A stretch of DNA of 64,000 bases from Escherichia phage SelmaRatti. This document shows positions 43,872-63,990 of this stretch, piece by piece. The translations under genes and the position numbers were made by a program. The stretch is from the sequence record MZ501103. The stretch is one strand, 5' to 3'. Below the pieces are notes generated by a model. It did not search any database. It was not told where the DNA came from and saw only the letters and a program-made list of their open reading frames with translations. Within the stretch, counting starts at the first letter, position 1. Every line of letters begins with the position of its first letter.

Positions 43872-44392
43872 TGAAAGTCTGCTTTTGGAGCGATCTACAC
43901 TTAGGACATGAAAATATTACTAAATTCAGACCAATCTTCTCTACTATGGAAGAGCATGATGAATTTATTATGGATACTATTACATCCATGAAAGATAAGC
44001 GTACAGTATTTTATATTTTAGGGGATGCATTTGTATCTAGAAATGGTTTGGAGAAATTCGAAAAACTCTTTAGTAATGTTAGAACTACATTAGTTTTGGG
44101 GAACCACGACTTAGAACGAGAAGGGTTATCTTTCAAAGACTTAGTGGGAGTTGTAGATAACGTACAATCCCTAGTTAAGTATAAAAACTTTTGGCTTTCC
44201 CATGCTCCAGTACATCCAGAAGAGTTAAGGGGCAAGAAGAACTTACATGGGCATACTCACTTTGAGTTAATGGGGGACCACCGTTATATTAACGTTTGTG
44301 TAGAGTATGCAAAATCACCAGTACGCCTGGAAGACATCATGAATGGTAAGTACACTTCTCATGATAAAACTAGCTGGATGTTAAATGTCTAA
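43871..44392 (+). CDS. metallophosphoesterase
   Basis: SDLHLGH, GDAF, GNHD and GHTH motifs. Confidence 0.65.
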   Translation: MKVCFWSDLHLGHENITKFRPIFSTMEEHDEFIMDTITSMKDKRTVFYILGDAFVSRNGLEKFEKLFSNVRTTLVLGNHDLEREGLSFKDLVGVVDNVQSLVKYKNFWLSHAPVHPEELRGKKNLHGHTHFELMGDHRYINVCVEYAKSPVRLEDIMNGKYTSHDKTSWMLNV

Positions 44393-44500
44393 GTATATAG
44401 CTGAGGTTATTATTAAACGAATTATACAGGCGATAGCAATACTTATAATCATTTGTATTGCTATTGGCACAGGATTAGGCATTTTAATTGAAAGTTTTAT

Positions 44501-44529
44501 TTGCTAAAATGCCTAAGTTTCTGTATAAT
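44501..44529 (+). promoter_or_regulatory. T5-type early promoter
   Basis: TTGCTA-17-TATAAT then TTTATAAATTGATGAG. Confidence 0.65.
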
Positions 44530-44559
44530 TACTTTATAAATTGATGAGAAGGAATCAAA

Positions 44560-44991
44560 ATGAACAAAGTTGATAAAGCTCTAGTTTTCGCAGCAGCAGA
44601 TAAGTTTGAACAAGTTAAGGCAACTTTCCGAACCTTGTTCCAGTCTTACGTTCAGGATAAGTCTAATCCTATCTCTGAACGTTTGATGGTCTGGGAATGT
44701 CATGCATGCAATGCCTTATTAATTGCTGATTATCGTAGCGATATAGATAAAGATCTGTGCGAAATTCTTATCGCTGAGGAGGCAGAACGTTATCAGTTAA
44801 TCTCTTTCCAAGATTTGGCAGAGCATATCATTCCCGATGATCTTTGGGATAAATACTATGGTGATCCTGAAGATGAAGGAATGACTCCAGAAGCATGCAT
44901 TGAGCTGATCTGCAAAGATCATCCTGAAATTGCAGAGAAATTTGAAAAAGTTTTTGCTTCTGAGTTCTCCGGCGTTGTTAACGATTGGTAA
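44560..44991 (+). CDS. hypothetical acidic protein (143 aa)
   Basis: ORF. Confidence 0.5.
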   Translation: MNKVDKALVFAAADKFEQVKATFRTLFQSYVQDKSNPISERLMVWECHACNALLIADYRSDIDKDLCEILIAEEAERYQLISFQDLAEHIIPDDLWDKYYGDPEDEGMTPEACIELICKDHPEIAEKFEKVFASEFSGVVNDW

Positions 44992-45051
44992 GTAATTAAA
45001 AAATTCAGTTGCTTTAAGCCTTAAAATTCTGTATAATAAGTTCATAAATTA

Positions 45052-45345
45052 ATGAGAGAGGAAATTCTAATGGAAAACATGACTAAAGACTTCGACGCCT
45101 CTAACCTTACCAAGACTGAAATGGCCAATGTATTAGCAATTCTTCTCGACATGCAAGGATTTGAGGGGCAACTGATGAAAATGTCCATCCCAGCAATGAA
45201 AAAGATGTATGATTCTCTTAATAAGAACGCTATGGCCTTTAACTTAGCGAAACAAGAGGCACGATTTGCTAAAGAGCATCAAGCAGTGGCAGAACGCCGA
45301 GCAGCTAGCTTTGAGCGTGAAGTCAAGCAATTAAAGAAAAAATGA
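45052..45345 (+). CDS. hypothetical protein (97 aa)
   Basis: ORF after T5-type promoter. Confidence 0.5.
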   Translation: MREEILMENMTKDFDASNLTKTEMANVLAILLDMQGFEGQLMKMSIPAMKKMYDSLNKNAMAFNLAKQEARFAKEHQAVAERRAASFEREVKQLKKK

Positions 45346-45878
45346 TAACACAAGAAAGATTAAAAGAGCTATTTGAATACCGCCAGGAAACGGGCGAGTT
45401 TATAAGGAAAGTCAGTAGAGGGCGAGGTAAAGCAGGTAGTATTGCTGGTAGTCCTGATAAGGATGGTTATATATTTATTGGAATAAATAGAAAAAGATAT
45501 GCAGCCCATAGATTAGCCTTTTTGTATATGGAGGGGTATATTCCAAATCTAGTACACCACTTAAATAATATAAGAAAAGATAATAGATGGTGTAATTTAA
45601 AAGATTGTACGTCCCAAGAGAATAATCGTAGCAAAATCGCTCAATCTAATTCGGGGTACTTAGGAATTACTTGGAAAAAAGATAGACAACAATGGAGAGT
45701 CCAGGTCAGAAGCGCCGAAAGTATTACAGTACACGGAGGCTACTTTAGGTATCTAGATTTAGAGTTGGCAGTTCAAAGAGCTAATGAACTACGTTTAGAA
45801 CTACATGGGGCTAACGCTGTTATAGAAACTTTTGATCATACAAAACCCTTACCTACTTTAGAGGAATTAAATAAATGA
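45342..45878 (+). CDS. HNH homing endonuclease (AP2-like)
   Basis: LVHHLNNIRKDNRWCNLKDCTSQENN; paralog of 39146. Confidence 0.7.
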   Translation: MITQERLKELFEYRQETGEFIRKVSRGRGKAGSIAGSPDKDGYIFIGINRKRYAAHRLAFLYMEGYIPNLVHHLNNIRKDNRWCNLKDCTSQENNRSKIAQSNSGYLGITWKKDRQQWRVQVRSAESITVHGGYFRYLDLELAVQRANELRLELHGANAVIETFDHTKPLPTLEELNK

Positions 45879-46156
45879 TTACAGAAATTTTAATTGGGTT
45901 ACTAATTCTTACTACGCTAGTAGCGATTGGTGGAGTTATTGGGGTTGTAAACGCACGAAAAAACATGGAAAGTATGCTCATTACTAATGATGGATTACAC
46001 CACCGTTTGCTAGAGCAAGAGCAAGATATTGAATTAGCACAAAGACGCTCAGATATTCTTAAAGAAAAATTAAATAATATAGAAGCAATAATTGGGAATA
46101 ATAAATTACCCGCTAAAGTAATGCGTACACAGATAATCACGGAGATTAAAAAATGA
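45875..46156 (+). CDS. hypothetical membrane protein (93 aa)
   Basis: N-terminal TM helix. Confidence 0.45.
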   Translation: MITEILIGLLILTTLVAIGGVIGVVNARKNMESMLITNDGLHHRLLEQEQDIELAQRRSDILKEKLNNIEAIIGNNKLPAKVMRTQIITEIKK

Positions 46157-46395
46157 TGTTTATTCTAGCATTTTATATAATCGTGGTAGGGGTTCTAGTT
46201 ACTAAGTACCATACATGGGCACCAAAGAATGTAGCTAAGGTAGCATTATTTGTTATTCCAGTTCCCCTTGTTATATTTTCTATGCTACTAGTGATGTTAA
46301 TCGGTAAAGTGACGAAGACCGATGTTAAGCGCATTGCTGACGAATTGCAACAGTCCTGTGATATGATTGAGGATATTATTAAAGATGAAACTTAA
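46153..46395 (+). CDS. hypothetical membrane protein (80 aa)
   Basis: Two TM helices. Confidence 0.45.
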   Translation: MMFILAFYIIVVGVLVTKYHTWAPKNVAKVALFVIPVPLVIFSMLLVMLIGKVTKTDVKRIADELQQSCDMIEDIIKDET

Positions 46396-46711
46396 TTTCA
46401 ATGAGTTAAATACTTTGCATGAGCTGTTACAGTTTGTAAATAATAATATTAGTATTCCAGATGATACACTAGAAGTTCTCATGTTAATAGAGAAAAAGGT
46501 AGGGGTTGAAATTGAGGATTCTTGGAAACCACTTTCTACATTAACACCTCTCAAAATGAAGGTGGTTGTTAAAAATATTGAAACTGGAGAAGAACGTGAG
46601 ATGGTTCGTACAGAACTAGCGAATAGTTACTCTCCAACGTCTGTAGTGATGCAACATGATGGTGTTTCCGAAGTTCTACAGACAGCTAATTACGTATGGC
46701 GTCTCCCATGA
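46367..46711 (+). CDS. hypothetical protein (114 aa)
   Basis: ORF; true start may be the internal Met. Confidence 0.45.
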   Translation: MRILLKMKLNFNELNTLHELLQFVNNNISIPDDTLEVLMLIEKKVGVEIEDSWKPLSTLTPLKMKVVVKNIETGEEREMVRTELANSYSPTSVVMQHDGVSEVLQTANYVWRLP

Positions 46712-46810
46712 TTGATTTAGTACCAATTACTGCTGGGCTAATAGCATTATTAGTGCTAGCAGTTTTCATTATTGTGGAGCAGGCCAAAGTAATAAGGAGA
46801 CTTAAAAACA

Positions 46811-47011
46811 ATGATAAAACGTATTGTTTATCAGACACCAAAGATTGTAACTGAGTATTTTGTATTACTGCCTCAGATTGTATTTCTAACAGCATTATTT
46901 AATATACTTTTTCGACATCTAGGAATAACGGAAAATATATTCTATACTTCTGGGTTACTTCCTTTTATGTACGAAGGCATCATTATGGCAATTAACGGGG
47001 TTCGTAAATGA
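46811..47011 (+). CDS. hypothetical small membrane protein (66 aa)
   Basis: Hydrophobic ORF; an unlisted 49-aa TM ORF lies at 46708-46857. Confidence 0.4.
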   Translation: MIKRIVYQTPKIVTEYFVLLPQIVFLTALFNILFRHLGITENIFYTSGLLPFMYEGIIMAINGVRK

Positions 47012-47469
47012 CAGCACTACAACAACTACAGAATTACTGGTTTGATAACCAATTTAACGATCTCTTCATCCAGTTGTTTGTCGAAACGAACGGACGCTTC
47101 AACTACCGATTCTTTAATAAGTTTCACGAAACAAAATTCTCACATACAGAAATTAATGCAGCAATCCAAGACCTAACTGGTTCTAAAGTAATTCAGTATC
47201 GTGAAGTAGACTTCACACCAGATTGTTTTGGGTTTGAATTGTTTAAGAAAGCGTATAAATTTGGTAAGTTTGAGGATGCTCGTCAATGGGTTCATGATTT
47301 CTGGTACAACACCGATATTGTCCCTAGTCGCGTGCTGATTCTTAACTGGATTGCTAAGCAACATCCACCTAAAACGCAATCATCCTTCTTACCGACTGAC
47401 ACAGGAAACCTCTACCATGACAGAAAAGAAAAATCCATTATTGGAGCAGATGAAGGAGTGGGAGAGTAA
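47008..47469 (+). CDS. hypothetical protein (153 aa)
   Basis: ORF. Confidence 0.5.
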   Translation: MTALQQLQNYWFDNQFNDLFIQLFVETNGRFNYRFFNKFHETKFSHTEINAAIQDLTGSKVIQYREVDFTPDCFGFELFKKAYKFGKFEDARQWVHDFWYNTDIVPSRVLILNWIAKQHPPKTQSSFLPTDTGNLYHDRKEKSIIGADEGVGE

Positions 47470-47788
47470 TATTGAAACTGGTCTAATAGACGGTGAAGAT
47501 ATTGTCAACTCCATGCTAGAAGTAACAGTAGATAATATTAATCCTATTTTGGCTGGAGAAACCTCAGATCTTATAGGACTCTCTAGCACATTTGATTCTT
47601 TGGCTAAATTAGCTTTAGACGATGAAGAGATAACTAAAGAAGATCTCGCTACAGCTATGAATATGGCTATTAATGCTTACATCGGTAAACGTACTGATGA
47701 ACTTGGTAAACAGATCAATAAGCGTGATGCTACGCTAGGTCTTATGGAAACGGCCACTATGTTAAGAAGTGGTAAACAACTTCATTAA
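47351..47788 (+). CDS. hypothetical acidic protein (true start probably internal Met near 47417)
   Basis: ORF overlapping upstream gene. Confidence 0.45.
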   Translation: MLSNIHLKRNHPSYRLTQETSTMTEKKNPLLEQMKEWESNIETGLIDGEDIVNSMLEVTVDNINPILAGETSDLIGLSSTFDSLAKLALDDEEITKEDLATAMNMAINAYIGKRTDELGKQINKRDATLGLMETATMLRSGKQLH

Positions 47789-47794
47789 TTTTAG

Positions 47795-47828
47795 GAGGCC
47801 AGAACAACTAAGTCCTGGCCTTTTATGT
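47795..47828 (+). terminator. rho-independent terminator
   Basis: GGCCAG-loop-CTGGCC hairpin then TTTTATGTTTT. Confidence 0.65.
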
Positions 47829-47844
47829 TTTCAAGGAACTTCAA

Positions 47845-48048
47845 ATGCAAGTATATGTCCTTACTAGAGATATAAATGAGTATAATCAGGATGGTGAGTA
47901 TTTTGTAAAAGTATTCGCTGAAAAGCCAAGTAAACAACAATTATTAGATGCGGGGGTACCCGAAGACCAGGCTAAGTGTATACTACAAGATAAAGAGTTT
48001 ACCGGGGATGCTTACGAATGTTTCTACCTTAACTGTGAGACTATTTAA
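47845..48048 (+). CDS. hypothetical protein (67 aa)
   Basis: ORF. Confidence 0.45.
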   Translation: MQVYVLTRDINEYNQDGEYFVKVFAEKPSKQQLLDAGVPEDQAKCILQDKEFTGDAYECFYLNCETI

Positions 48049-48490
48049 TATGAGAGAGAAAGTAAATGAATTATTAATCGAGGAAGCTAACAACTTTCCA
48101 ATAAATAGATTCATTAAATCGGATGGATCTATTAATAGAACTAAGATTAAGCAGCTACATCCCGACTTTCAACAAGAAGCACTAAACCTTATATTTATCA
48201 AGAAAGCTGTTGCAGTTCATGGAGCTTTCTTTGGGTATGAACGTGTAAATTATAAGACAATGCAACAGCAAGTCGAGATCTACTGCCCGGACCATGATGG
48301 TTATTACTGGCAAACTGCTAGATCTCATTTAGAAGGGCACGGTTGTCGACTGTGTGCACACAAGGTTGTGCAGCGTGTCACGGATTATGGAACTTATACC
48401 GTGCCATCATGTTACCATAAATTTGTAATTGACGATAATCATATAGTTTGGTATAATAAGTTTTCAAAGTTAAGAATGGAGATAAAATAA
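47948..48490 (+). CDS. hypothetical protein with Cys/His cluster (true start probably Met near 48050)
   Basis: CPDHDGYYWQTARSHLEGHGCRLCAHK putative zinc-binding segment. Confidence 0.45.
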   Translation: MRGYPKTRLSVYYKIKSLPGMLTNVSTLTVRLFNMREKVNELLIEEANNFPINRFIKSDGSINRTKIKQLHPDFQQEALNLIFIKKAVAVHGAFFGYERVNYKTMQQQVEIYCPDHDGYYWQTARSHLEGHGCRLCAHKVVQRVTDYGTYTVPSCYHKFVIDDNHIVWYNKFSKLRMEIK

Positions 48491-48670
48491 TGGAAACACT
48501 TTTTTAATGCTCGTAGGTTCGTTAGTAGTTATATTAGCACTTCTACTAATCTGCAATATTCTTAATAATAAGAATTTAGAGTTAAAGTGTGAGAACCAAA
48601 TCCTTAATCGTGAACTTACACAATATAATGTAGCAGCTCGCAAGCTGTTAGACAAACTGGAGAATAAATA

Positions 48671-49282
48671 ATGTTTACACAACAAACCATTAAAGTAGTA
48701 GCAGATCATGAACTCGACACATGGGATTACAGCTTTAAAGATCTGACTGCTACAGTACAGTTTAAATCTATGCAACTGTCGTTTTTGCACACTGATCTTC
48801 AAGGTTGTAAAGAGTTTCAGGCTAAGCTCATCGATGCTCGTAAGATTTTTGGTACGGCTCGCATCCCGGCTGATAACCTGATTAATGCACTAATCGATGC
48901 AGGGTACAAACTCGTGAAGACCGAGGTGAACCGCCCTAGTACTCCAGTGACTATTAGAGATCCGTGGCAGTCAGGGACAATCTCAATGCTGAATAACTCC
49001 GATAAAAGATTAATGTCGGATATGCACAATGTTCATTGTGGTGGTGTGGTAAGCAATACGCAATCATATAAGTTTGGTGAAGATTGCGGCCCTTCTGTAC
49101 AGCTGCAACATACCCAAGAGGCTTTTGAATCTGATATGCGAAGCGTAGCACCTGAGGATGCTGGAGTTTCTAGGAGTTCTGTTTGTACTATTCATTTTAA
49201 TAATCTTAGGCCTGGGAATATAAATGATACTATCCTTGAAGCGTTGGGGGCTGCTCTTAATGAAGATAAGAGAGGTAGTTAA
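48671..49282 (+). CDS. hypothetical protein (203 aa)
   Basis: ORF. Confidence 0.5.
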   Translation: MFTQQTIKVVADHELDTWDYSFKDLTATVQFKSMQLSFLHTDLQGCKEFQAKLIDARKIFGTARIPADNLINALIDAGYKLVKTEVNRPSTPVTIRDPWQSGTISMLNNSDKRLMSDMHNVHCGGVVSNTQSYKFGEDCGPSVQLQHTQEAFESDMRSVAPEDAGVSRSSVCTIHFNNLRPGNINDTILEALGAALNEDKRGS

Positions 49283-56574: not shown

Positions 56575-56772
56575 ATGATCTTTTACCCCACTGAATCGCT
56601 AATTTTAGGCTTATTTATTATGGCGGCCTCATTATTATTTGCTTATTTTCAAAATGATTTAGATTCGTATTATTTTAAGCGAAAAGCTAAATTGGCAAAG
56701 CGTTTAGGTCTGATTTGTTTTATTGCCGCCATTGCTCTTGGTGTAAGTTCAAGCCTAATGCCTATTAGTTAA
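56575..56772 (+). CDS. small membrane protein (65 aa)
   Basis: ATG 56575 after CTGGAGTT RBS; two TM helices. Confidence 0.5.
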   Translation: MIFYPTESLILGLFIMAASLLFAYFQNDLDSYYFKRKAKLAKRLGLICFIAAIALGVSSSLMPIS

Positions 56773-56869: not shown

Positions 56870-58534
56870 ATGGTTATTTCCGCAGAAAAACAAATCCAGA
56901 TTCTCAACCTTGCCGCTGATTTTAATTTTTATGGTAAACGTCTGCGCGCTACTAAGCTGGAAGTTTGTGACGATATATCAAAAGCTGTTTATGATACGCC
57001 GAAACATTCCACCGCTATTTGTGACTGGCTGGAAGCAAATAAGCCAGCGAAACCGAAAGCGGCAAAAGCTGAAAAGGCGATTAAAAACGATGATCGCCCC
57101 GAAGCGGCTGGGATTGTTTCTAGTACGGTGGAGCAATGGGAAGTAAAACAAGGTAAACGCTTTATTATTACATCGATTCAGAATAATACGTTCCCACATA
57201 AAAACTTTTTAGCCTCGCTTGAACAATATGCCCAGTTTATCGGCGCTGATTTGCTTGTTTCTAAGTATATTTATAATAAAAACGGATTCCAAAATGGAGA
57301 AGGGGCAGACGGTATCAAATATGATTCCGCATTTGATAAATATATCTGCGAGAAAAATGTATTTTTAAACAATCGCCGTTTTGCTTTCATGGCTGAAATT
57401 AATGTTTTGCCAACCGCAGATTATCCGCTTTCTGGATTCGCTGAAACTGCAACGGCTTTAAATATTGAAGGGCTGGCAATTGGTCACGCTAAAATTACCG
57501 CCGAAAGCGTGCCAGCTTTAAAAGGTGGAGTAGTGCGCCGTATGTATTCAACCGGAACGGCAACGTTAAAAAACTACATTCAGCAGAAAGCAGGACAAAA
57601 GGCCGGGGCGCTGCATAATTTCGGGGCGCTTATTGTTGAGTTCGACGACGACGGGGAATTTTTTGTTCGCCAGCTTGAAACGATGGACGAAAGCGGCGTT
57701 TTTTACGATTTGAATATTTACGCCACTCCCACCGGATGCTATGAAACAACGGGGCACGTTTTAGGTTTACAATATGGCGATATTCACGCCGAAAAATTAG
57801 ATGATGATTGTGCCGTTGCGTCATGGGCTGGCGAAAATAGCTTGCTTGATATTTTAAAGCCTAAATATCAGTTTGTGCATGACGTGCATGATTTTACATC
57901 GCGCAATCACCACAACCGCGCGTCTGGTGTATTCCTAGCGAAACAGTATGCAGCCGGACGTGATAAAGTTCTGGATGATCTCATCGACACGGGGCGCGTG
58001 CTGGAATCAATGGAACGCGATTTCTCGCAAACAATCATCGTGGAGTCTAACCATGATCTGGCGCTTTCCCGCTGGCTGGATGATCGTAATGCTAACATTA
58101 AAGACGACCCAGCAAACGCGGAACTATATCACCGCCTTAATGCTGCAATCTATGAAGCTATTGCAGAAAAAGACGACACTTTCAACGTGCTAGATTATGC
58201 GCTGCGCAAGGTTGCAGGCTGTGAATTTAACGCCATTTTCCTTACTACTGATCAATCTTTCAAGATTGCAGGCATTGAATGCGGCGTACACGGTCACAAT
58301 GGCATTAACGGAAGCCGTGGCAATCCGAAACAGTTTAAGAAATTGGGCAAATTAAACACCGGACACACTCACACGGCTAGTATTTACGGCGGCGTATATA
58401 CCGCTGGCGTGGCTGGTTCCCTTGATATGGGTTACAACGTTGGCGCGTCAAGCTGGACGCAAACGCATTTAATTACCTATGCGAACGGCCAGCGCACTTT
58501 GATTGACTTTAAAAACGGCAAATTTTTCGCGTAA
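56870..58534 (+). CDS. A1: A1-like pre-early protein, SbcD/Mre11-like metallophosphoesterase
   Basis: 554 aa; phosphoesterase motifs GDIH, HDVHD, ESNHD, GVHGHNG, GHTHT; position in pre-early operon upstream of dmp. Confidence 0.6.
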   Translation: MVISAEKQIQILNLAADFNFYGKRLRATKLEVCDDISKAVYDTPKHSTAICDWLEANKPAKPKAAKAEKAIKNDDRPEAAGIVSSTVEQWEVKQGKRFIITSIQNNTFPHKNFLASLEQYAQFIGADLLVSKYIYNKNGFQNGEGADGIKYDSAFDKYICEKNVFLNNRRFAFMAEINVLPTADYPLSGFAETATALNIEGLAIGHAKITAESVPALKGGVVRRMYSTGTATLKNYIQQKAGQKAGALHNFGALIVEFDDDGEFFVRQLETMDESGVFYDLNIYATPTGCYETTGHVLGLQYGDIHAEKLDDDCAVASWAGENSLLDILKPKYQFVHDVHDFTSRNHHNRASGVFLAKQYAAGRDKVLDDLIDTGRVLESMERDFSQTIIVESNHDLALSRWLDDRNANIKDDPANAELYHRLNAAIYEAIAEKDDTFNVLDYALRKVAGCEFNAIFLTTDQSFKIAGIECGVHGHNGINGSRGNPKQFKKLGKLNTGHTHTASIYGGVYTAGVAGSLDMGYNVGASSWTQTHLITYANGQRTLIDFKNGKFFA

Positions 58535-58591
58535 TTAAATTATTTCCCTAGCGGCTTGAAATATAGCCGCTATTATAGGAGCTAAATTAGA

Positions 58592-58849
58592 ATGAAAGTT
58601 ACATTACCCAAAACATTGGACGAAAAAGTATTCATTTCACCGGATGAAATGGAATCCGGTGAAGTTTACAGCTTCGGGCCTATCCTAGCCGCCAAAACTA
58701 ATACGGATGGCATTATTACGGTCAATTATCGTGATAATGATATTGTTCCTTTTGAAGATGATGACGCTTTTTATGAGTGGCTAATCGTTAATAATTTACC
58801 CGTAGACGGTGAATTAACGCCATATCAAATGCAAATTATCATTAAATAA
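58592..58849 (+). CDS. hypothetical pre-early protein (85 aa)
   Basis: ORF with RBS AGGAG. Confidence 0.5.
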   Translation: MKVTLPKTLDEKVFISPDEMESGEVYSFGPILAAKTNTDGIITVNYRDNDIVPFEDDDAFYEWLIVNNLPVDGELTPYQMQIIIK

Positions 58850-58860
58850 AGGTATCAATA

Positions 58861-59151
58861 ATGAAAATTAATTTACCTAGTAGTGAGTTTTCCCCTAAAT
58901 CCCTTTTATTAGATGATATTATTAATCAATATTCTTACATAAACGGGGAAGTATATCGCGCTTGTTCTGACTTCCTAGATTATCCCGATTATCCAATCTA
59001 TAAGGGTGATTTCATTATACCTGTTTATAATGGTGTGCTAGTAGTATGTAAAGCTGGGGCTATTGTTATAGATAGCTGCACATTATCACAAGAAACGTTT
59101 AAAGTGCCGATAGAGTTAACTAATTATTCTACTAGTATCACAGTACAATAA
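58861..59151 (+). CDS. hypothetical pre-early protein (96 aa)
   Basis: ORF. Confidence 0.5.
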   Translation: MKINLPSSEFSPKSLLLDDIINQYSYINGEVYRACSDFLDYPDYPIYKGDFIIPVYNGVLVVCKAGAIVIDSCTLSQETFKVPIELTNYSTSITVQ

Positions 59152-59187
59152 ATTAAGTCCCTTATTAAATTAATTGGAGTCATAAAC

Positions 59188-59583
59188 ATGGATAAATCTA
59201 ACCGTATCCCATTCGATCGCGCTCAGTCTTCTATTGTTCTGGTTTATTCTAATGGTGAACGTTACCACGTCGAGGCGGGGCACGTTATTGGTGAATTGCT
59301 AGACTTTAACGAGGCGCTACAGGTTACTACTTTCGCCTATACCACGGGCAAGGCAGCAAGCCGCATTAAAGCGAAAGGCGTTTATATTGATACCATGAAA
59401 CAAGAAACCATCATTATTGACGCTGTAAAATCAGGTCTAGCCTTTGCAGTAGTCGCACCTTGCCCCGCTTGCCTCGATGATCAATTGATTAGCGCAAAAG
59501 TATATACTTGTGCGGGTATTCGTTCCAATGTATCCGGTGAGGATGTTAGTTTTATCGCTGATGCGTTGGCTTATGGTCTTTAA
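59188..59583 (+). CDS. hypothetical pre-early protein (131 aa), possible A2-like partner
   Basis: ORF with TTGGAGTCATAAAC-ATG context; A2 assignment is positional guess only. Confidence 0.45.
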   Translation: MDKSNRIPFDRAQSSIVLVYSNGERYHVEAGHVIGELLDFNEALQVTTFAYTTGKAASRIKAKGVYIDTMKQETIIIDAVKSGLAFAVVAPCPACLDDQLISAKVYTCAGIRSNVSGEDVSFIADALAYGL

Positions 59584-59596
59584 TAGTTAATTTATT

Positions 59597-59620
59597 ATTG
59601 CCCGCTGATAAATAGCGGGC
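59597..59620 (+). terminator. hairpin, weak terminator or attenuator
   Basis: TTGCCCGCT-loop-AGCGGGCAA without a strong T-run. Confidence 0.35.
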
Positions 59621-59663
59621 AATGCTGAATTAATCTAATCCCTTAAATGGAGAACGTAACAAA

Positions 59664-60398
59664 ATGAATCAAGTTAAAACGAATATTACCCGCAATTTCC
59701 CGCATATTTCCCGCGTCATGATTTGGGACTTAGACGGCACTATCGTTAATTCATTCCATCGCGTAGCGCCTTGCTTTGATGATAACGGGAATCTAGATTT
59801 AAATAAGTATTCCCGCGAAGCCTGCAAACATAATTTAATAATGCAAGATACTTTATTGCCGCTTGTTACATATATGCGCCAGTGCATGAATGACGCAAAT
59901 ACTTTAAACATTATCTGTACAGCTCGACTGATGAGAAAGTCGGACTATTATTATTTGCGTAAACAAGGCTTACGAGGGGGTGTGAATAGTAATATCCGTG
60001 TATTTTCCCGCGATACACTACACAAATATTTTAAAGCTGATAAGGTTAGCGAAATATACCACAGCAAAGACGCAGTATATAAATCTTATTATTTTGAATT
60101 ATTTAAACAGTTATATCCGAACGCTGATTTTACAATGATTGATGATCATAAAGGCGTGCTATCAGCGGCGGCATCATACGGATTTAAAACGCTGGACGCG
60201 CAAGCCGTTAACGATATTCTATCAATCGGCGTGGCATTGATAGGTGAAACCTTTATCGATGAATCTCTTGAGGATGATAATGATTATCAGTTCCTAGCCG
60301 ACCGTCTGCAATTATGTTGGGAAGGTATGACCGAGGAAGAACGCGCAGAATATAGTTGCAGCCCGCAACAATATATTGAGAAACTAAAAGTTGCGTAA
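59664..60398 (+). CDS. dmp: 5-prime-deoxyribonucleotidase, HAD-family (Dmp-like)
   Basis: 244 aa; HAD motif I in VMIWDLDGTIVNS. Confidence 0.7.
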   Translation: MNQVKTNITRNFPHISRVMIWDLDGTIVNSFHRVAPCFDDNGNLDLNKYSREACKHNLIMQDTLLPLVTYMRQCMNDANTLNIICTARLMRKSDYYYLRKQGLRGGVNSNIRVFSRDTLHKYFKADKVSEIYHSKDAVYKSYYFELFKQLYPNADFTMIDDHKGVLSAAASYGFKTLDAQAVNDILSIGVALIGETFIDESLEDDNDYQFLADRLQLCWEGMTEEERAEYSCSPQQYIEKLKVA

Positions 60399-60417
60399 TA
60401 ATTAAAGTTGAAATTGT

Positions 60418-60451
60418 TTCACCCTGCAATTAAAATGGTTGCAGGGTGAAA
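60418..60451. terminator. long hairpin between convergent dmp and HNH genes
   Basis: TCACCCTGCAA-loop-TTGCAGGGTGA. Confidence 0.45.
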
Positions 60452-60573
60452 TAGTTAGCAGGGTAATAGTAACGGGGGTGGCGGTTAGGAGACTAAGTAT
60501 TCTCCCACTAGCCACTGCACCCACCCACGCGTACGTAATCCAAAGAATTTGGTAAAAGTCATTTTAGTGCTAA

Positions 60574-61071
60574 TTAATTATGATTTGCAAACTCGCCGTG
60601 ATAATGCTCCCTGGCTTTTTTAAGCTCTTTTTCAGCCTGCTCAATGGTTTTAAAAGTTCCTACGGTAATTCTATTGCCATTTACACGTAGTTTTGCTTCG
60701 AACTTTTCCTCCCCACGTTTATATACCCCCTTAACTCCGGTAGATTCATTTTTCCATCCCGAAGAGTTTTTGCCATTCTCTGCATTTGTTGCTTTACGCA
60801 GGTTATTCCACCTATTGTTGAAAGGGTCTTGATCTTTATGATCAATGAGAAACTCACTAGGATCTTCTCCTGTCATGTATAGATACGCTACCAGATGGGC
60901 CTTATATAACCCATTACTGCCCATTGATAGGGATATTCCTGAGCTATTTCTACTGCCTGCTGGCTTACCTTTACGACTCCCTGAGTTCCAAGTAAATATA
61001 CCCGTCTCTGGATCATAATCAAATTTCTTCTGGTATTCTGCTAAGGGGAGTAGAGGTTTATGATTTGCCAT
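60574..61071 (-). CDS. HNH homing endonuclease (AP2-like)
   Basis: LIDHKDQDPFNNRWNNLRKATNAEN HNH motif. Confidence 0.7.
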   Translation of the reverse strand: MANHKPLLPLAEYQKKFDYDPETGIFTWNSGSRKGKPAGSRNSSGISLSMGSNGLYKAHLVAYLYMTGEDPSEFLIDHKDQDPFNNRWNNLRKATNAENGKNSSGWKNESTGVKGVYKRGEEKFEAKLRVNGNRITVGTFKTIEQAEKELKKAREHYHGEFANHN

Positions 61072-61255
61072 CTATCTTGAATCTCCTCCGAGAACTTCTT
61101 GAATCATCATTCCACTCCCACTCGAACTCCGCACGTTTCTCGTCAAACTTCCGCTCCCTTTCCGCAGTATATTTACGATGCTTGTTAATAGCCGCAGTCA
61201 TTCCGAAAACTCCCGCGAGTATCCCAATAATAAAAGCAATTATAATACTAAACAT
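61058..61255 (-). CDS. small membrane protein (65 aa)
   Basis: N-terminal TM helix MFSIIIAFIIGILAGVFGMTAAI. Confidence 0.45.
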   Translation of the reverse strand: MFSIIIAFIIGILAGVFGMTAAINKHRKYTAERERKFDEKRAEFEWEWNDDSRSSRRRFKIDGKS

Positions 61256-61442
61256 CTAATTCCCTCTCAATTTGCAGAATACGGGTGCTGTCACAACGTT
61301 GCAGTAGTACTAGCTTTTCTAGAGTAACTTGTTGTTGTTTTACTTGAGCTTCTAGAGTTTTTAAGCGGAGATACACGATACGAGAGACAATGAAGATTGC
61401 CCAGACTAATATTACTATTAGTGTAACTGCCATTTCCATCAT
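61248..61442 (-). CDS. small membrane protein (64 aa)
   Basis: TM helix VTLIVILVWAIFIVS; overlaps neighbours. Confidence 0.45.
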   Translation of the reverse strand: MMEMAVTLIVILVWAIFIVSRIVYLRLKTLEAQVKQQQVTLEKLVLLQRCDSTRILQIERELDV

Positions 61443-61850
61443 TTACGTTTCTCCGTTAATAAAGTTTCAATTCTAGCTAAGTGATTATCTAAGATACATT
61501 GCCCAATAATCACAATCCCTAGCAACGCAATAAGTACCCATTCCATTAAATCCACCCCGCCATAGCTGCTAACCAAAAACCTGCGAAAATAAAGAATAGG
61601 ATAGTTCCGAACCCAAAGCTATTAATCCAGCTATCGTACACTTCTCCACGTCTGCTCTTTCTTTTGTTTGACATATCTTTCATGCTCCTATAAATATGGT
61701 ATTTAAAATATTCTATAATTTGTGCATAACCAACCGTGCCTGTGAACTCCTAAAAGGACTTCTACTTTTCTTACATAGTGGTTTCTGCCAATATACCATC
61801 CAAAAAATAAAAAATTTAGTTTACTTGGATGTCTTTTTGCTTTATACTAA

Positions 61851-62117
61851 TTACAGGTAGTTAGATTGCTCTAGTTTAAATTTACAATCACCATATTTAA
61901 GATCAAACTGACTGAGATCCCACCACCCAAACTTAGTACGGAGCTGTACTACTGGAAAGCGATCTCCCTTAATACGAACTTTTTGAACCTTGAGGCCGTA
62001 ATGTTCCTCTCCCGCACCTCCAAAAGATTTTACAAATCCCGTACAAAATGGTTTGGGGGCAGGTGCACAACCAGATAACATAACTGCGGCAACTAGTGCA
62101 ATTACAAACTTTTTCAT
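61851..62117 (-). CDS. llp: Llp-like lipoprotein (receptor-blocking superinfection-exclusion candidate)
   Basis: 88 aa; signal peptide with lipobox LSGC; divergent from the receptor-binding protein gene. Confidence 0.55.
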   Translation of the reverse strand: MKKFVIALVAAVMLSGCAPAPKPFCTGFVKSFGGAGEEHYGLKVQKVRIKGDRFPVVQLRTKFGWWDLSQFDLKYGDCKFKLEQSNYL

Positions 62118-62202
62118 ATTTATCTCTCCATTTCTATTTTATGAATATATTATAGCAAAGTAGAGAGATAAAAGCAAATACATTTTTATAATAGGAGATT
62201 AT

Positions 62203-63990
62203 ATGGGTTTTTTCGCTGGAAAATATAGTGATGGTAAGACCGTACTATCTTTAAATACTGAATCTGGGGGTGACATTAATGCCCACAAAACTCCTAATGC
62301 CAATACTATATTTCATTCTGATATGCCATTTGTTCTAGTTGAGAGTACGTATGAGAGTGCGTTAAGTAATGCTGGTAATGGGTTCTTTGTATGCCAAATG
62401 CCTTCTGTAATAGCCAATTTAAAGAGTAATGACCCTGGTATGGTTATACTAACCGCTGTTGAGATAAATGGTACACATAGAGCTTTTCTTAATGGTACTC
62501 AATCCCAGGTTGGACAATTTCTTACATTTTTTGAAGATCTCTCTATTGGCAGGGCTGGTGCTGAATTAGGTCTTACGTCAGCTTTTGCATCTGGTAATAG
62601 CTTAGCACATGGTACTTATACTTATAACTCCAGTCTAGGCCATGAAGAGTCAATAGCTAGGCAAGGTACTGGTGGTACTATATCACAGGCTTCTGGGTTT
62701 AACTTATACAGACCAAAAGGGGCGTACGCCGGTGAAGCTATAGGCAGAGCATGGACTTTAGCAGGATTTCCAGCAGGAGCGTCTACAGTACCTATAGACG
62801 GTGGTAATGCTGACTACTGGCACCCTAATTGGCAAGCCCCTATAGGAGCCGCTTATAGAGGACATAATTGGTTTTACGTTTGTAACTCTAATATACGTGG
62901 TTATGTAGGTAAAAAGGGCACAGTACCAGCTAATGTTAACTTATTGTATCAATCTCCTACTTACCCTGATAAGGTTTATATATGTAAAGGTTCAACATCT
63001 AACCTAGCAGCACAGGCCGCTAAGAAAGTGTATGTGCAGGATTGGTATAACATAACTCCTACCAAAGTTATTTGGTATGTACTTAATTTGAGGTATTCTA
63101 ACGGTAATATGGGTGTATCTGGTAACCCATTTACCGGATCAGATATACTTATAACTCCATCTAATTTTACTATAAAAGGGGTTAGTCTACCAAATACTGG
63201 ATATAAGTTTATCAACCAAAATGCTTTTGGTAATTTAGGCTATAGACCAGATATGGAGTACATTGGAAATAATGCAGCGTACACTGGAGCCTTTGGAGAC
63301 ACCACTGCGCGTTGTGAAATTGTAGGATCTAGTAACGGATCTTTATGGTCTCCTGTAGATTATGGAGGGGCTAAGTCTCAGATTAGTATTTACAAGTTCG
63401 GAGCTGGTAAGCAATGGTACGTAAACTCAAGTAATAACACTATAGGTAATGAGCATGGAGCTGTGTGGAGTCCTAGTACTGTACCTTTAAGACTATTTCC
63501 TAATAATGTTGCTAGTACCTACGTTGGTGATGATATAACCCCAGCGTATCCTGGAGCAGGTAACTACTATACGGCTCTAGCTACCATAGGACTAGGATTA
63601 CCTAATGCTAACGCAACGGTAATATTAACTACGGAAGTTATTATGGGTAATATTAATACGGCTGGAGGAGCCATACGCACATACGGTGGTACTGCTTGGC
63701 AAGTACAAGGAAGAAGACAGCATAGTTACACGGAAGGTGATGGAATATTCCATCAAATATTAACCTTACCTCCTGGATACTTAGTCCCTTATCACTCCAC
63801 TACTGCATACAGTTATACTCAAACTTGGGCAAGTAGACCTGATGAGTTAACATTTAGAAGAAACGGATATATTTATACTATTAAAAATCTAGGAAATGGT
63901 AATGCTGAATTGGGCGTAATTATTCATGCTGCTGAGGCTGCAGCTATTTTCCTACCTAGATTAAGAGTAACAGTTCAACGCCTTACCTAA
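62203..63990 (+). CDS. oad: receptor-binding tail protein, pb5/Oad-like
   Basis: 595 aa; N-terminus MGFFAGKYSDGKTVLSLNTESGGD; Gly/Asn/Tyr-rich; adjacent divergent lipoprotein. Confidence 0.55.
   Translation: MGFFAGKYSDGKTVLSLNTESGGDINAHKTPNANTIFHSDMPFVLVESTYESALSNAGNGFFVCQMPSVIANLKSNDPGMVILTAVEINGTHRAFLNGTQSQVGQFLTFFEDLSIGRAGAELGLTSAFASGNSLAHGTYTYNSSLGHEESIARQGTGGTISQASGFNLYRPKGAYAGEAIGRAWTLAGFPAGASTVPIDGGNADYWHPNWQAPIGAAYRGHNWFYVCNSNIRGYVGKKGTVPANVNLLYQSPTYPDKVYICKGSTSNLAAQAAKKVYVQDWYNITPTKVIWYVLNLRYSNGNMGVSGNPFTGSDILITPSNFTIKGVSLPNTGYKFINQNAFGNLGYRPDMEYIGNNAAYTGAFGDTTARCEIVGSSNGSLWSPVDYGGAKSQISIYKFGAGKQWYVNSSNNTIGNEHGAVWSPSTVPLRLFPNNVASTYVGDDITPAYPGAGNYYTALATIGLGLPNANATVILTTEVIMGNINTAGGAIRTYGGTAWQVQGRRQHSYTEGDGIFHQILTLPPGYLVPYHSTTAYSYTQTWASRPDELTFRRNGYIYTIKNLGNGNAELGVIIHAAEAAAIFLPRLRVTVQRLT

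What the first reader, a model, noticed from the sequence alone, without database searches (positions are those of the whole stretch)
61058..63990. Receptor-binding locus with a cluster of small membrane ORFs
Seen in sequence: a pb5-like 595-aa protein faces a divergently transcribed 88-aa lipoprotein with lipobox LSGC. Upstream on the minus strand are four overlapping small ORFs each with one TM helix (61058-61255, 61248-61442, and two ORFs below 60 aa at about 61443-61540 and 61555-61690). Established knowledge: in T5 the Llp lipoprotein blocks the FhuA receptor and lies beside the receptor-binding gene. Inference: the small membrane ORFs may be further exclusion or lysis-regulating factors.
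Basis: partly seen in the sequence, partly recalled or inferred. Interest (0 to 1): 0.45.

Follow-up and report, generated by a model that had tools for sequence, protein, structure and literature searches.

The report
T5-type BtuB receptor module, annotated
This is the ordinary, already published host-recognition locus of a T5-like phage (Escherichia phage SelmaRatti): a BtuB-class tail-tip receptor-binding protein, its known receptor-blocking lipoprotein, and four conserved small membrane-protein genes of still unknown function.

Summary
The window matches Escherichia phage SelmaRatti (Bas34): six proteins of this locus are exact matches to its GenBank entries.

- **RBP (62203-63990, +).** It is a full-length homologue of T5 pb5, but only about 30% identical. 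It belongs to the BtuB class: it shares a 90% cluster with the SPC35 RBP and is 81% identical to the RBP of TrudiRoth, which is experimentally BtuB-dependent. The BASEL table lists BtuB for SelmaRatti.
- **Llp (61851-62117, -).** It is the BF23-type Llp and is 98.9% identical to DT57C Llp. That protein, cloned alone, excludes BtuB phages but not T5.
- **Small ORFs.** They are orthologues of T5.159 to T5.162. All show purifying selection (dN/dS 0.05-0.43), have Shine-Dalgarno sites and overlap by 1, 4 and 8 nt.
- **Position of the small ORFs.** They lie outside the exchangeable RBP/llp cassette and are 76-96% identical to T5's, although the receptor differs.
- **Predicted topology.** It puts their soluble parts in the cytoplasm. 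T5 encodes holin, endolysin and spanins elsewhere.

So the small ORFs are not receptor-specific blockers and not core lysis genes. Their function remains unknown. An HNH homing endonuclease sits at their 3' end. The verdict is already known and of low interest.

The parts
62203..63990 (+). Receptor-binding tail-tip protein (pb5/Hrs homologue, BtuB class), 595 aa. Exact match to SelmaRatti QXV84460.1.
   Evidence: It matches phrog_4815 at E=1.7e-275 and solved T5 pb5 (8b14_B) at E=2e-45. Identity is 30% to T5 pb5, 27% to FepA-type S124, 81% to TrudiRoth, 59% to phiR2-01 and 96% to NR01 and vB_SenS_S124. Its 90% cluster includes the SPC35 RBP. TrudiRoth's dependence on btuB was complemented experimentally (PMC8594841). 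The BASEL table lists BtuB for Bas34.
62118..62202 (.). 85-nt divergent control region between llp and the RBP gene.
   Evidence: Read by eye on the minus strand: ATTTGCTTT, 17 nt, TATAAT, followed by the Shine-Dalgarno site GGAGAG and the llp ATG. I recall that T5 early promoters look like this, but that is my own knowledge and was not tested. The simple consensus scan missed it because TTGCTT matches only 3 of 6 positions of TTGACA. T5 annotates divergent promoters in the same spacer.
61851..62117 (-). Llp, the BF23-type receptor-blocking (superinfection exclusion) lipoprotein. The precursor is 88 aa and the mature protein 72 aa, starting at the lipidated Cys17.
61684..61850 (-). 167-nt spacer between the llp stop codon and the first ATG of o159.
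   Evidence: No terminator-like site was found and the RNA has no significant structure (z=-1.5). Only about the last 32 nt before o159 are shared with T5. The rest travels with llp. No promoter was mapped here and T5 annotates none.
61546..61674 (-). o159, the orthologue of T5.159 (bas34_0166), 42 aa. It is predicted to be tail-anchored, with a basic N-terminal segment in the cytoplasm and one C-terminal TM helix.
   Evidence: It matches phrog_8596 at E=4.6e-31 and is 96% identical to T5.159. dN/dS is 0.05-0.21. Variable sites at codon positions 1/2/3 number 12/10/28, p=3e-3. It is found in 447 phage records. The motifs RRGEVY, SW, N, G-G and AAMAG are invariant across the 14 aligned sequences. 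AGGAG lies 10 nt before this ATG. The sequence is an exact match to QXV84458.1.
61439..61546 (-). o160, the orthologue of T5.160 (QXV84457.1), 35 aa, with an N-terminal TM helix and a short charged tail.
   Evidence: It matches phrog_6369 at E=7.3e-25 on residues 11-45 of the longer TTG ORF and is 94% identical to T5.160. dN/dS is 0.05-0.26. Variable sites at codon positions 1/2/3 number 15/4/20, p=6e-3. The start overlaps the o159 stop codon (TAATG). GQC.LDNHLARIE is invariant.
61248..61442 (-). o161, the orthologue of T5.161 (bas34_0164), 64 aa, with an N-terminal TM helix and a coiled-coil-like tail ending in ELDV. It is the least constrained of the four and the one most often missing.
   Evidence: It matches phrog_5851 at E=5e-32 and is 77% identical to T5.161. 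dN/dS is 0.24-0.43, and 0.73 against phiR2-01. The codon-position test is not significant (p=0.21). It is absent from NR01, NBEco002, 2-3, bombadil and TrudiRoth. It is found in 303 records. It overlaps o160 by ATGA.
61058..61255 (-). o162, the orthologue of T5.162 (bas34_0163), 65 aa here against 72-81 aa elsewhere. It has an N-terminal TM helix and a highly charged tail. This copy has a 7-aa in-frame deletion and a short, HNH-associated C-terminus.
   Evidence: It matches phrog_6447 'membrane protein' at E=5.9e-30. It is 100% identical to SelmaRatti bas34_0163. dN/dS is 0.18-0.38. Variable sites at codon positions 1/2/3 number 17/18/38, p=3e-3. An exhaustive profile search of 1.84 billion representatives found only 5 hits, all already in the set whose named members are all T5-like phages.
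60574..61071 (-). HNH homing endonuclease (QXV84454.1), 165 aa, inserted between o162 and the terminal-repeat boundary. Its start overlaps the end of o162 by 14 nt.
   Evidence: Pfam HNH_3 matches at E=1.5e-12 and phrog_99 at E=5.1e-56. The gene is absent from T5, DT571/2, NBEco002, TrudiRoth and many other records. Genomes carrying this 165-aa homologue (slur09, Stp1) share the o162 tail IDGKS/IDGRS.
59601..60525 (+). Inner end of the terminal repeat (pre-early region), including the dmp gene (59664-60398). This is context, not part of the module.
   Evidence: It is 91.7% identical to T5 L002 7529-8453, which is T5 record 111528-112452. The T5 right terminal repeat starts at 111532.

Best explanation
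This is the standard host-recognition end of a T5-like (Tequintavirus) genome, and it matches Escherichia phage SelmaRatti (Bas34).

**RBP.** The 595-aa protein is the tail-tip receptor-binding protein, a homologue of T5 pb5 and BF23 Hrs. By class membership it binds the vitamin B12 transporter BtuB, not FhuA.

**Llp.** The divergent 88-aa gene encodes the BF23-type Llp lipoprotein. It is made early from its own sigma-70 promoter, lipidated at Cys17 and sent to the outer membrane (residue +2 is Ala). By analogy with the solved T5 Llp-FhuA complex, it would bind the periplasmic face of BtuB and lock it in a form the RBP cannot use. That would prevent superinfection and the loss of progeny on cell debris.

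**Small genes.** Downstream on the same strand are four tightly packed, translationally coupled genes, the orthologues of T5.159 to T5.162. They encode real, conserved proteins with one TM helix each.
- They are not part of the exchangeable receptor cassette.
- Inference 1: they are read through from the llp promoter as early genes.
- Inference 2: they sit in the inner membrane with their conserved soluble segments in the cytoplasm.
- Inference 3: they serve an accessory, receptor-independent function at the cytoplasmic membrane. I put about 0.4 on a generic host or envelope-modulating role, about 0.2 on exclusion at the DNA-entry step, and about 0.1 on lysis timing.

**HNH.** A free-standing HNH homing endonuclease has inserted at the 3' end of the block and replaced the C-terminal tail of o162.
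For: **Identity.** Six proteins of the locus are exact matches to SelmaRatti GenBank entries.

**RBP.**
- It is homologous to pb5.
- It shows BtuB-class similarity: 81% to TrudiRoth, whose btuB dependence was complemented, 59% to phiR2-01, and a shared 90% cluster with the SPC35 RBP.
- It is only 27-31% identical to FhuA-class and FepA-class RBPs.
- The BASEL table lists BtuB for Bas34.

**Llp.**
- It has a lipobox.
- It is 98.9% identical to DT57C Llp, which excludes BF23 and DT57C but not T5 when expressed alone.
- A Cys pair is conserved, matching the Cys11-Cys58 disulfide of T5 Llp.

**Small ORFs.**
- They match their own PHROG families and correspond to the T5 annotation.
- dN/dS is below 1.
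- Third-position variation is enriched for three of the four.
- They have Shine-Dalgarno sites and overlapping stop and start codons.
- They are 76-96% identical to T5's, although the RBP is 30% identical and the Llp unrelated in sequence.
- The cassette boundaries fall at about 61716 and 63952.
- No terminator or stable structure lies between llp and o159.
- The basic residues flanking the TM helices are consistent with cytoplasmic tails.

**HNH.** Domain hits and a presence/absence polymorphism support the call.
Against: - The topology rests only on hydropathy and the positive-inside rule.
- Co-transcription with llp is inferred from the lack of a terminator and from T5 annotating no promoter there. 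An extended -10-like TGGTATATT in the spacer could be a separate promoter.
- The codon-position test is not significant for o161 (p=0.21).
- The T5 CRISPRi-ART screen calls T5.159 to T5.162 'Not Fit'. That screen also calls the portal, ltf and lys genes 'Not Fit', so it says little.
Confidence: 0.82

Rival explanations
1. The four small membrane proteins form a second, receptor-independent layer of superinfection exclusion. From the inner membrane they would block DNA entry by a superinfecting T5-like phage, in the manner of T4 Imm or HK97 gp15, and so complement Llp.
For: - They lie on the same strand directly downstream of llp, with no terminator between.
- o159 and o162 are conserved across FhuA, BtuB and FepA classes, as a receptor-independent function would require.
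- They show no fitness effect in single-infection laboratory screens.
Against: - Llp alone already gives 100-fold to 10^6-fold exclusion.
- The predicted periplasmic exposure is only 0-4 residues, which leaves little to contact an incoming tail-tip complex.
- There is no similarity to any known exclusion protein or PADLOC model.
- No such second exclusion layer came up for T5 in the papers read here.
Confidence: 0.2
2. They regulate lysis, acting as antiholin-like or holin-modulating small membrane proteins, or as extra spanin-like components.
For: - They have a single TM helix plus a coiled-coil or charged tail, which is the general shape of holin regulators and i-spanins.
- o162 has a faint hit to phrog_1026 'Rz-like spanin' (E=0.05) and a below-threshold hit to LapA_dom (19.9 bits against a cut-off of 28).
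Against: - T5 encodes endolysin T5.040, holin T5.041 and Rz-like spanins T5.044 and T5.045 about 90 kb away in the early region.
- The hits are not significant.
- The predicted topology (C-terminus in the cytoplasm) is the opposite of an i-spanin.
- The adjacent lipoprotein is the characterised Llp, not an o-spanin.
- Five relatives lack o161 entirely, one of them (TrudiRoth) a plaque-forming BASEL isolate.
Confidence: 0.1
3. They are virion or tail-assembly factors, as several GenBank and UniRef records label them ('tail assembly protein', 'tail fiber protein').
For: - These labels appear on homologues of o161 and o160.
- The ORFs lie next to the RBP gene.
Against: - They are on the opposite strand from the late operon and co-oriented with the early gene llp.
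- They are 35-65-aa TM proteins.
- No experimental basis was found in the AKFV33 or BF23 proteome papers.
- PHROGs gives them unknown function.
- o161 is missing from five of the relatives examined, including TrudiRoth, which plates normally on K-12.
Confidence: 0.03
4. Some or all of the small ORFs are not translated, and the conservation reflects a DNA or RNA element near the terminal-repeat boundary.
For: - They are very short (35-65 aa).
- o161 fails the codon-position test (p=0.21).
- No direct expression data were found.
Against: - dN/dS is 0.05-0.43 in all but one pairwise comparison, even where dS exceeds 1.
- The reading frames are preserved through in-frame 21-nt indels.
- Each has a Shine-Dalgarno site, and the stop and start codons are coupled.
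- Amino-acid motifs are invariant across genera.
Confidence: 0.04

Closest known systems
BF23 hrs-llp and DT57C/SPC35 rbp-llp host-recognition modules (BtuB-specific T5-like phages)
   Same: - The gene order, divergent orientation and position before the small terminase gene are the same.
- The Llp is 98.9-100% identical.
- The RBP shares a 90% cluster with SPC35's.
- The recombination point between the RBP gene and llp was already described for DT57C, and the same mosaic is seen here.
   Different: The RBP is of the 595-aa type and only 67-70% identical to the 585-aa DT57C/L6jm type, although the Llp is shared. Nothing else differs in kind.
T5 oad (pb5)-llp module with the solved FhuA-pb5 and FhuA-Llp structures (PMC9586334)
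   Same: - The architecture is the same, and the RBP is a full-length homologue (E=2e-45).
- The Llp has the same design: a lipidated Cys, a second Cys 8-10 residues later and a third near the C-terminus.
   Different: - The receptor is BtuB, not FhuA.
- The RBP is only 30% identical.
- The Llp has no significant sequence similarity beyond the signal peptide and first-cysteine region.
- DT57C Llp does not protect against T5.
T5.159 to T5.162 (phrog_8596, 6369, 5851, 6447), annotated 'contains single transmembrane domain'
   Same: - These are orthologues in the same order and position, between llp and the right terminal repeat.
- They are 96%, 94%, 77% and 76% identical.
- Their function is unknown there too.
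   Different: The o162 copy here has lost 7 internal residues and carries a different, shorter C-terminus because of the HNH insertion.
Cor lipoproteins of T1, phi80 and N15 (FhuA-directed exclusion)
   Same: The PHROG family that both Llp types fall into is named after Cor. These are small outer-membrane lipoproteins that block a TonB-dependent transporter.
   Different: The NCBIfam Cor equivalog is not met: 15.8 bits against a cut-off of 31, and the match covers the signal peptide region only. The receptor is different.
T4 Imm and Sp, HK97 gp15 (small inner-membrane exclusion proteins)
   Same: This is a resemblance only, and it applies only to the unproven reading of the small ORFs. These are small phage-encoded membrane proteins that act independently of the receptor.
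   Different: There is no sequence or profile similarity. Membership was not claimed.

Membership tests
pb5/Hrs receptor-binding tail-tip protein of T5-like phages (phrog_4815) | Full-length sequence homology to pb5 | tested here: met
   phrog_4815 matches at E=1.7e-275 over residues 1-595. T5 pb5 chains 8b14_B and 8a8c_B match at E=2e-45 in two stretches, 1-199 and 280-595.
pb5/Hrs receptor-binding tail-tip protein of T5-like phages (phrog_4815) | Position immediately upstream of the small terminase gene and divergent from llp | tested here: met
   Synteny with NBSal003, T5, slur09 and DT571/2. Similarity to T5 resumes at 63953, just before terS.
BtuB-specific RBP class | Clusters with RBPs of phages shown experimentally to need BtuB, and not with the FhuA or FepA classes | tested here: met
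   It is 81% identical to TrudiRoth (btuB mutant complemented) and 59% to phiR2-01. It shares a 90% cluster with the SPC35 RBP. It is 27-31% identical to T5, slur09 and S124.
BtuB-specific RBP class | Actual dependence of infection on BtuB | not testable with these tools
   The BASEL supplementary table lists BtuB as the terminal receptor of SelmaRatti/Bas34. It was not verified independently here.
BF23-type Llp receptor-blocking lipoprotein | Lipoprotein signal peptide with a lipobox and a non-Asp residue at +2 | tested here: met
   The sequence reads MKKFVIALVAAVMLSGC-A. LPAM_1 scores 23.9 bits against a cut-off of 20.
BF23-type Llp receptor-blocking lipoprotein | Near identity to an Llp with demonstrated exclusion activity | tested here: met
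   It is 98.9% identical to DT57C Llp. That protein, cloned alone, lowers the plating efficiency of BF23, DT57C and DT571/2 more than 100-fold and does not affect T5 (PMC4728585).
T5 Llp / Cor family (common origin with the FhuA-directed lipoproteins) | Significant sequence similarity of the mature protein | tested here: not met
   T5 Llp chains are not hit in the PDB at E<=10. hhalign aligns only 28 columns, covering the signal peptide and first cysteine. The NCBIfam Cor model scores 15.8 bits against a cut-off of 31. Both proteins do fall in phrog_1119.
T5 Llp / Cor family (common origin with the FhuA-directed lipoproteins) | Same fold and the same disulfide linking the termini | tested here: inconclusive
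T5.159 to T5.162 small membrane-protein families | Orthology by sequence, order and position | tested here: met
   PHROG E-values are 5e-32 to 7e-25. Identity to T5 is 76-96%. Order and position match the T5 annotation.
Two-component spanins (Rz/Rz1-like) | An i-spanin with N-in/C-out topology and a periplasmic coiled coil, paired with an o-spanin lipoprotein gene inside the lysis cassette | tested here: not met
   The phrog_1026 hit is only E=0.05. Basic residues directly after the TM helix predict a cytoplasmic C-terminus. T5 has Rz-like spanins T5.044 and T5.045 beside dnk and the holin and endolysin genes. The neighbouring lipoprotein is Llp.
HNH homing endonuclease | An HNH domain and a presence/absence polymorphism between otherwise collinear genomes | tested here: met
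   PF13392 matches at E=1.5e-12. The gene is absent from T5, DT571/2, NBEco002 and TrudiRoth at the same site. Cleavage activity was not tested.

The most novel reading that the evidence does not exclude
The four conserved, cytoplasm-facing micro-proteins (T5.159 to T5.162 orthologues) assemble into one inner-membrane complex. Expressed together with Llp, this complex would give T5-like phages a second, receptor-independent protection of the infected cell. It might, for example, close the DNA-entry route or the TonB/ExbBD energy coupling that every FhuA, BtuB or FepA phage needs. That would explain why o159 and o162 are kept in almost all Markadamsvirinae whatever the receptor.
Probability: 0.15. 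Interest if true: 0.5.

Novelty: already known. Interest (0 to 1): 0.14.

Why it matters
**What is already settled.** The RBP/Llp pair is textbook T5/BF23 biology. This phage, SelmaRatti (Bas34), is published with BtuB listed as its receptor. For host-range prediction the practical point is that the locus is BtuB-class, not FhuA-class.

**What remains open.** The role of the T5.159 to T5.162 block is unknown. These four genes are real and translationally coupled. o159 and o162 are present in about 440 sequenced T5-like genomes, and no function, paper or phenotype was found for any of the four. The analysis shows they are not part of the receptor cassette and probably face the cytoplasm, which narrows the experiments worth doing.

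**A minor point.** The predicted fold and cysteine pattern suggest that the 'non-homologous' BF23-type and T5-type Llp proteins may share an origin.

Tried and rejected
1. **Domain libraries for the small ORFs.** Pfam, NCBIfam and PADLOC gave nothing above threshold. The LapA_dom hit (19.9 bits against 28) and the Rz-like spanin hit (E=0.05) look like generic matches between a TM helix followed by basic residues, so I rejected them.
2. **Literature search by locus tag** (T5.159-162, T5p157/158) found no papers.
3. **Wider homologue searches.** The word-indexed search and the exhaustive profile search for o162, and the search for o159, found no named homologue outside T5-like phages; most hits are unnamed metagenome contigs. 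One hit is a 461-bp contig labelled Bilophila, which is probably contamination.
4. **Paralogues in the window.** None were found.
5. **Promoter and terminator scan of 60300-62400.** The number of sites was no higher than in shuffled sequence, with no terminator between llp and o159. The scan also missed the likely llp promoter.
6. **RNA fold of the llp-o159 spacer.** It is not significant (z=-1.5).
8. **hhalign of the BF23-type Llp profile.** Against T5 Llp it aligned only the signal peptide region. Against the S124 'receptor blocking protein' it aligned nothing, which exposed that annotation as positional.
9. **Essentiality data.** The HIDEN-SEQ preprint covers no T5-like phage. CRISPRi-ART T5 data exist but are too insensitive to settle essentiality.
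10. **'Tail assembly' and 'tail fiber' labels.** I found no experimental support and rejected them.

Full report
**What is there**

- A 595-aa ORF lies at 62203-63990 (+).
- A divergent 88-aa ORF lies at 61851-62117 (-). Its signal peptide ends in L-S-G-C.
- Four packed small ORFs lie further down the minus strand, followed by a 165-aa ORF at 60574-61071.

They run 61439-61546 (35 aa, ATG) and 61546-61674 (42 aa, from the second ATG). Three results support these forms.
- The PHROG profiles match them end to end.
- Each has a correctly spaced Shine-Dalgarno site.
- They are exactly the sequences deposited in GenBank for SelmaRatti, and they have the lengths T5 annotates for T5.159 and T5.160.

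The gene junctions are TAATG (1 nt), ATGA (4 nt), 8 nt, and 14 nt into the HNH gene.

**Whose genome this is**

DNA searches place the window among T5-like phages of the Demerecviridae, genus Tequintavirus. The best hits are about 90% identical, to NBSal003 and NBEco001. Exact-sequence look-ups then show that six proteins of the locus are identical to proteins of Escherichia phage SelmaRatti: the RBP, both sub-60-aa ORFs, o161, o162 and the HNH enzyme. SelmaRatti is Bas34 of the BASEL collection (MZ501103, 107,080 bp). The Llp is an exact match to a sequence shared by many phages. The whole locus is therefore already deposited and annotated. The window runs in the opposite orientation to the T5 reference. 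The plus-strand genes at 56870-60398 (A1, A2-like, dmp) are the pre-early genes of the terminal repeat. Similarity to T5 ends at about 60525, which corresponds to the start of T5's right terminal repeat.

**The RBP**

It is a genuine pb5 homologue. It matches phrog_4815 at E=1.7e-275 and solved pb5 chains at E=2e-45 over both the N-terminal and C-terminal parts. It is only 30% identical to T5 pb5 and 27% to the FepA-type RBP of S124. In contrast it is:
- 96% identical to NR01 and vB_SenS_S124;
- 81% identical to TrudiRoth;
- 67-70% identical to the 585-aa DT57C/L6jm type;
- 59% identical to Yersinia phage phiR2-01.

Its 90% cluster contains the SPC35 RBP. TrudiRoth's dependence on btuB was shown and complemented in the BASEL study. 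That study also found that RBP clusters predict the receptor, and its supplementary table lists BtuB for Bas34. DT57C and phiR2-01 are also BtuB phages.

**The lipoprotein**

It meets the Pfam lipoprotein-attachment model and phrog_1119. It is 98.9-100% identical to the Llp of DT57C, SPC35, L6jm and about 180 other phage records.

Golomidova et al. cloned the DT57C llp, which differs from BF23's by one residue. Their reverse primer is the reverse complement of window 61670-61690, so their clone stopped at the start of o159. Leaky expression lowered plating of DT57C, DT571/2 and BF23 more than 100-fold and did not affect T5. The function of this Llp is therefore known by near identity, and it does not need the small ORFs.

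The same paper describes a recombination point between hrs and llp. The same mosaic is seen here: an Llp identical to that of phages whose RBPs are only 67-70% identical, while phages with closer RBPs (TrudiRoth, 81%) have a 68%-identical Llp.

**Is this Llp related to T5 Llp?**

By sequence it is not. No T5 Llp chain is hit in the PDB at E<=10. Profile comparison aligns only the signal peptide and the first cysteine. The NCBIfam Cor model is far below its cut-off.

Three observations point the other way.
- Both proteins sit in phrog_1119.
- Cys25 and Cys78 are invariant in 12 homologues. This mirrors the Cys11-Cys58 disulfide that ties the termini of T5 Llp together.

**The four small ORFs are real genes**

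They are the orthologues of T5.159 to T5.162. T5 annotates all four as single-TM hypothetical proteins in the same place, between llp and the right terminal repeat. Each matches its own PHROG family at E=5e-32 to 7e-25.
- Pairwise dN/dS against 8-13 relatives is 0.05-0.21 for o159, 0.05-0.26 for o160, 0.24-0.43 for o161 (0.73 in one distant pair) and 0.18-0.38 for o162. The comparison values are about 0.1 for dmp and 0.06-0.18 for the RBP within its class.
- Variable sites concentrate at third codon positions for o159, o160 and o162 (p=3e-3 to 6e-3). They do not do so significantly for o161 (p=0.21).
- Amino-acid motifs are invariant across genera. Examples are RRGEVY..SW.N in o159, GQC.LDNHLARIE in o160, ELDV at the end of o161, and FxEKRxEFE..WxDGSR in o162.
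- In 50,697 phage records, o159 occurs in 447, o162 in 438, o161 in 303 and o160 in at least 188. The last figure comes from a 35-aa query, so it is an undercount.
- No named homologue lies outside T5-like phages, even in an exhaustive profile search of 1.84 billion representatives.

**What the small ORFs are not**

*They are not part of the receptor-specific cassette.* Similarity to T5 covers 61079-61715. It breaks from 61716 to 63952, which is most of the spacer, llp and the RBP gene, and resumes at 63953 (alignment). Identity to T5 is 96%, 94%, 77% and 76% for o159 to o162, while the RBP is 30% identical and the Llp has no match. The same holds for slur09, which has a FhuA-type RBP. Receptor-specific blocking is therefore excluded.

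*They are not core lysis genes.* T5 has endolysin T5.040, holin T5.041 and Rz-like spanins T5.044 and T5.045 in the early region. The spanin-like hit of o162 is E=0.05.

*Their topology argues against the outer membrane as a target.* o159 has five basic residues before its C-terminal TM helix. In o160, o161 and o162 the TM helix starts at residues 1-5, and basic residues follow it within a few positions (directly in o161). Almost nothing is left for the periplasm. This rests on hydropathy and the positive-inside rule only.

*They are not all indispensable.*
- o161 is missing from NR01, NBEco002, 2-3, bombadil and TrudiRoth.
- o160 was not detected in S124, 2-3 or phiR2-01.
- NBSal003 has a truncated o162.
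- The T5 CRISPRi-ART screen scores all four, and llp, as 'Not Fit'. It does the same for the portal, ltf and lys genes, so it is weak evidence.

*Clusters of small hydrophobic ORFs are common in this genome type.* The window has 22 ATG ORFs of 30-100 aa with a strongly hydrophobic segment, including another run at 45875-47011. T5 annotates many more such ORFs.

**Most likely mode of action**

The shown parts are gene order, coupling, conservation and independence from the receptor. The inferred parts are as follows.

llp has a promoter that looks like a T5 early promoter: ATTTGCTTT, 17 nt, TATAAT (the resemblance is my own recollection). No terminator or stable hairpin separates it from o159, and T5 annotates no promoter there. 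The five genes are therefore probably one early transcript. A weak extended -10 (TGGTATATT) in the spacer cannot be ruled out.

I take the four products to be inner-membrane micro-proteins with cytoplasmic tails that carry out an accessory, receptor-independent task at the cytoplasmic membrane. My estimates are:
- about 0.4 for a generic host or envelope-modulating role;
- about 0.2 for exclusion at the DNA-entry step;
- about 0.1 for lysis timing;
- less than 0.05 each for 'not translated' and for the 'tail assembly' or 'tail fiber' labels found in some records, for which I found no experimental basis.

**The HNH gene**

The ORF at 60574-61071 has an HNH_3 domain (E=1.5e-12) and matches phrog_99. 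It is present in some genomes and absent from others that are otherwise collinear, including T5, DT571/2, NBEco002 and TrudiRoth. Genomes carrying this 165-aa homologue share a short o162 tail (IDGKS or IDGRS) and the 14-nt overlap. The insertion therefore replaced the 3' end of o162. This fits the known habit of homing endonucleases of sitting at exchange boundaries, a point cited in the BF23 paper.

**Verdict**

The locus is a known, published and annotated module, so interest is low. The only open question is the function of the T5.159 to T5.162 block. This analysis narrows that question to a receptor-independent, cytoplasm-facing, accessory role but does not answer it.

Noticed in passing
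window 60574-61071 (-), overlapping 61058-61071: An HNH homing endonuclease is inserted between o162 and the terminal-repeat boundary. Genomes carrying this 165-aa homologue share a replaced, shorter o162 C-terminus (IDGKS or IDGRS) and a 14-nt overlap. The o162 family has four alternative C-terminal tails in all.
   Followed up: partly
window 61058-61255 (-); proteins P0015, P0023, P0068, P0069: The o162 family shows three different in-frame 7-residue (21-nt) deletions. This phage lacks IAGVTRE. Two other members lack REIAERE. Two more lack GILAGVF, which lies inside the TM helix. The cause is unexplained. It could be slippage, or tolerance of whole-heptad loss in a helix.
   Followed up: no
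L005 3422-3733 (Salmonella phage S124, MH370375.1): This phage has a FepA-type RBP. The ORF annotated 'receptor blocking protein, T5 Llp-like' is not a lipoprotein. It is an acidic 103-aa protein homologous to S132 gp077 and TrudiRoth bas30_0203/0204. No ORF with a lipobox lies between its RBP gene and o159, so this FepA-class phage may lack an Llp at the usual site.
   Followed up: partly
L014 2217-2533 (TrudiRoth); L006 3606-3875 (S132): Epseptimaviruses carry an extra ORF, or a split pair of ORFs, between llp and o159. Tequintaviruses such as this window lack it.
   Followed up: no
L012 226-822 (Klebsiella phage AmPh_EK80, Sugarlandvirus): The two ORFs divergent from this distant RBP are proteins of 74 and 122 aa with an N-terminal TM helix and a coiled coil. 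They are not lipoproteins. The first begins MEVVIGALVLL, which resembles o160 (MEVVIIALL). The locus is cut by the end of the record, so the neighbourhood is incomplete.
   Followed up: no
window 61248-61546 and homologues in GenBank and UniRef: Homologues of o161 and o160 are labelled 'tail assembly protein' and 'tail fiber protein' in several records, and UniRef gives that name to SelmaRatti's own o161. I found no experimental basis, so these look like propagated misannotations.
   Followed up: partly
window 61851-63990: There is mosaicism inside the RBP/llp module. The Llp is 99-100% identical to that of phages whose RBP is only 67-70% identical, while phages with an 81%-identical RBP have a 68%-identical Llp. 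The same kind of exchange point between hrs and llp was reported for DT57C.
   Followed up: yes
window 44385-48671 (+), 56575-56772 (+): There are other runs of small ORFs with a strongly hydrophobic segment, for example 45875-46156, 46153-46395, 46696-46854, 46811-47011 and 48507-48671. This shows that clusters of small membrane ORFs are common in this genome.
   Followed up: no
window about 60521-60525: Similarity to the T5 terminal repeat ends here. The position corresponds to the start of T5's right terminal repeat at 111532, so this is probably the inner boundary of the repeat in this phage.
   Followed up: partly
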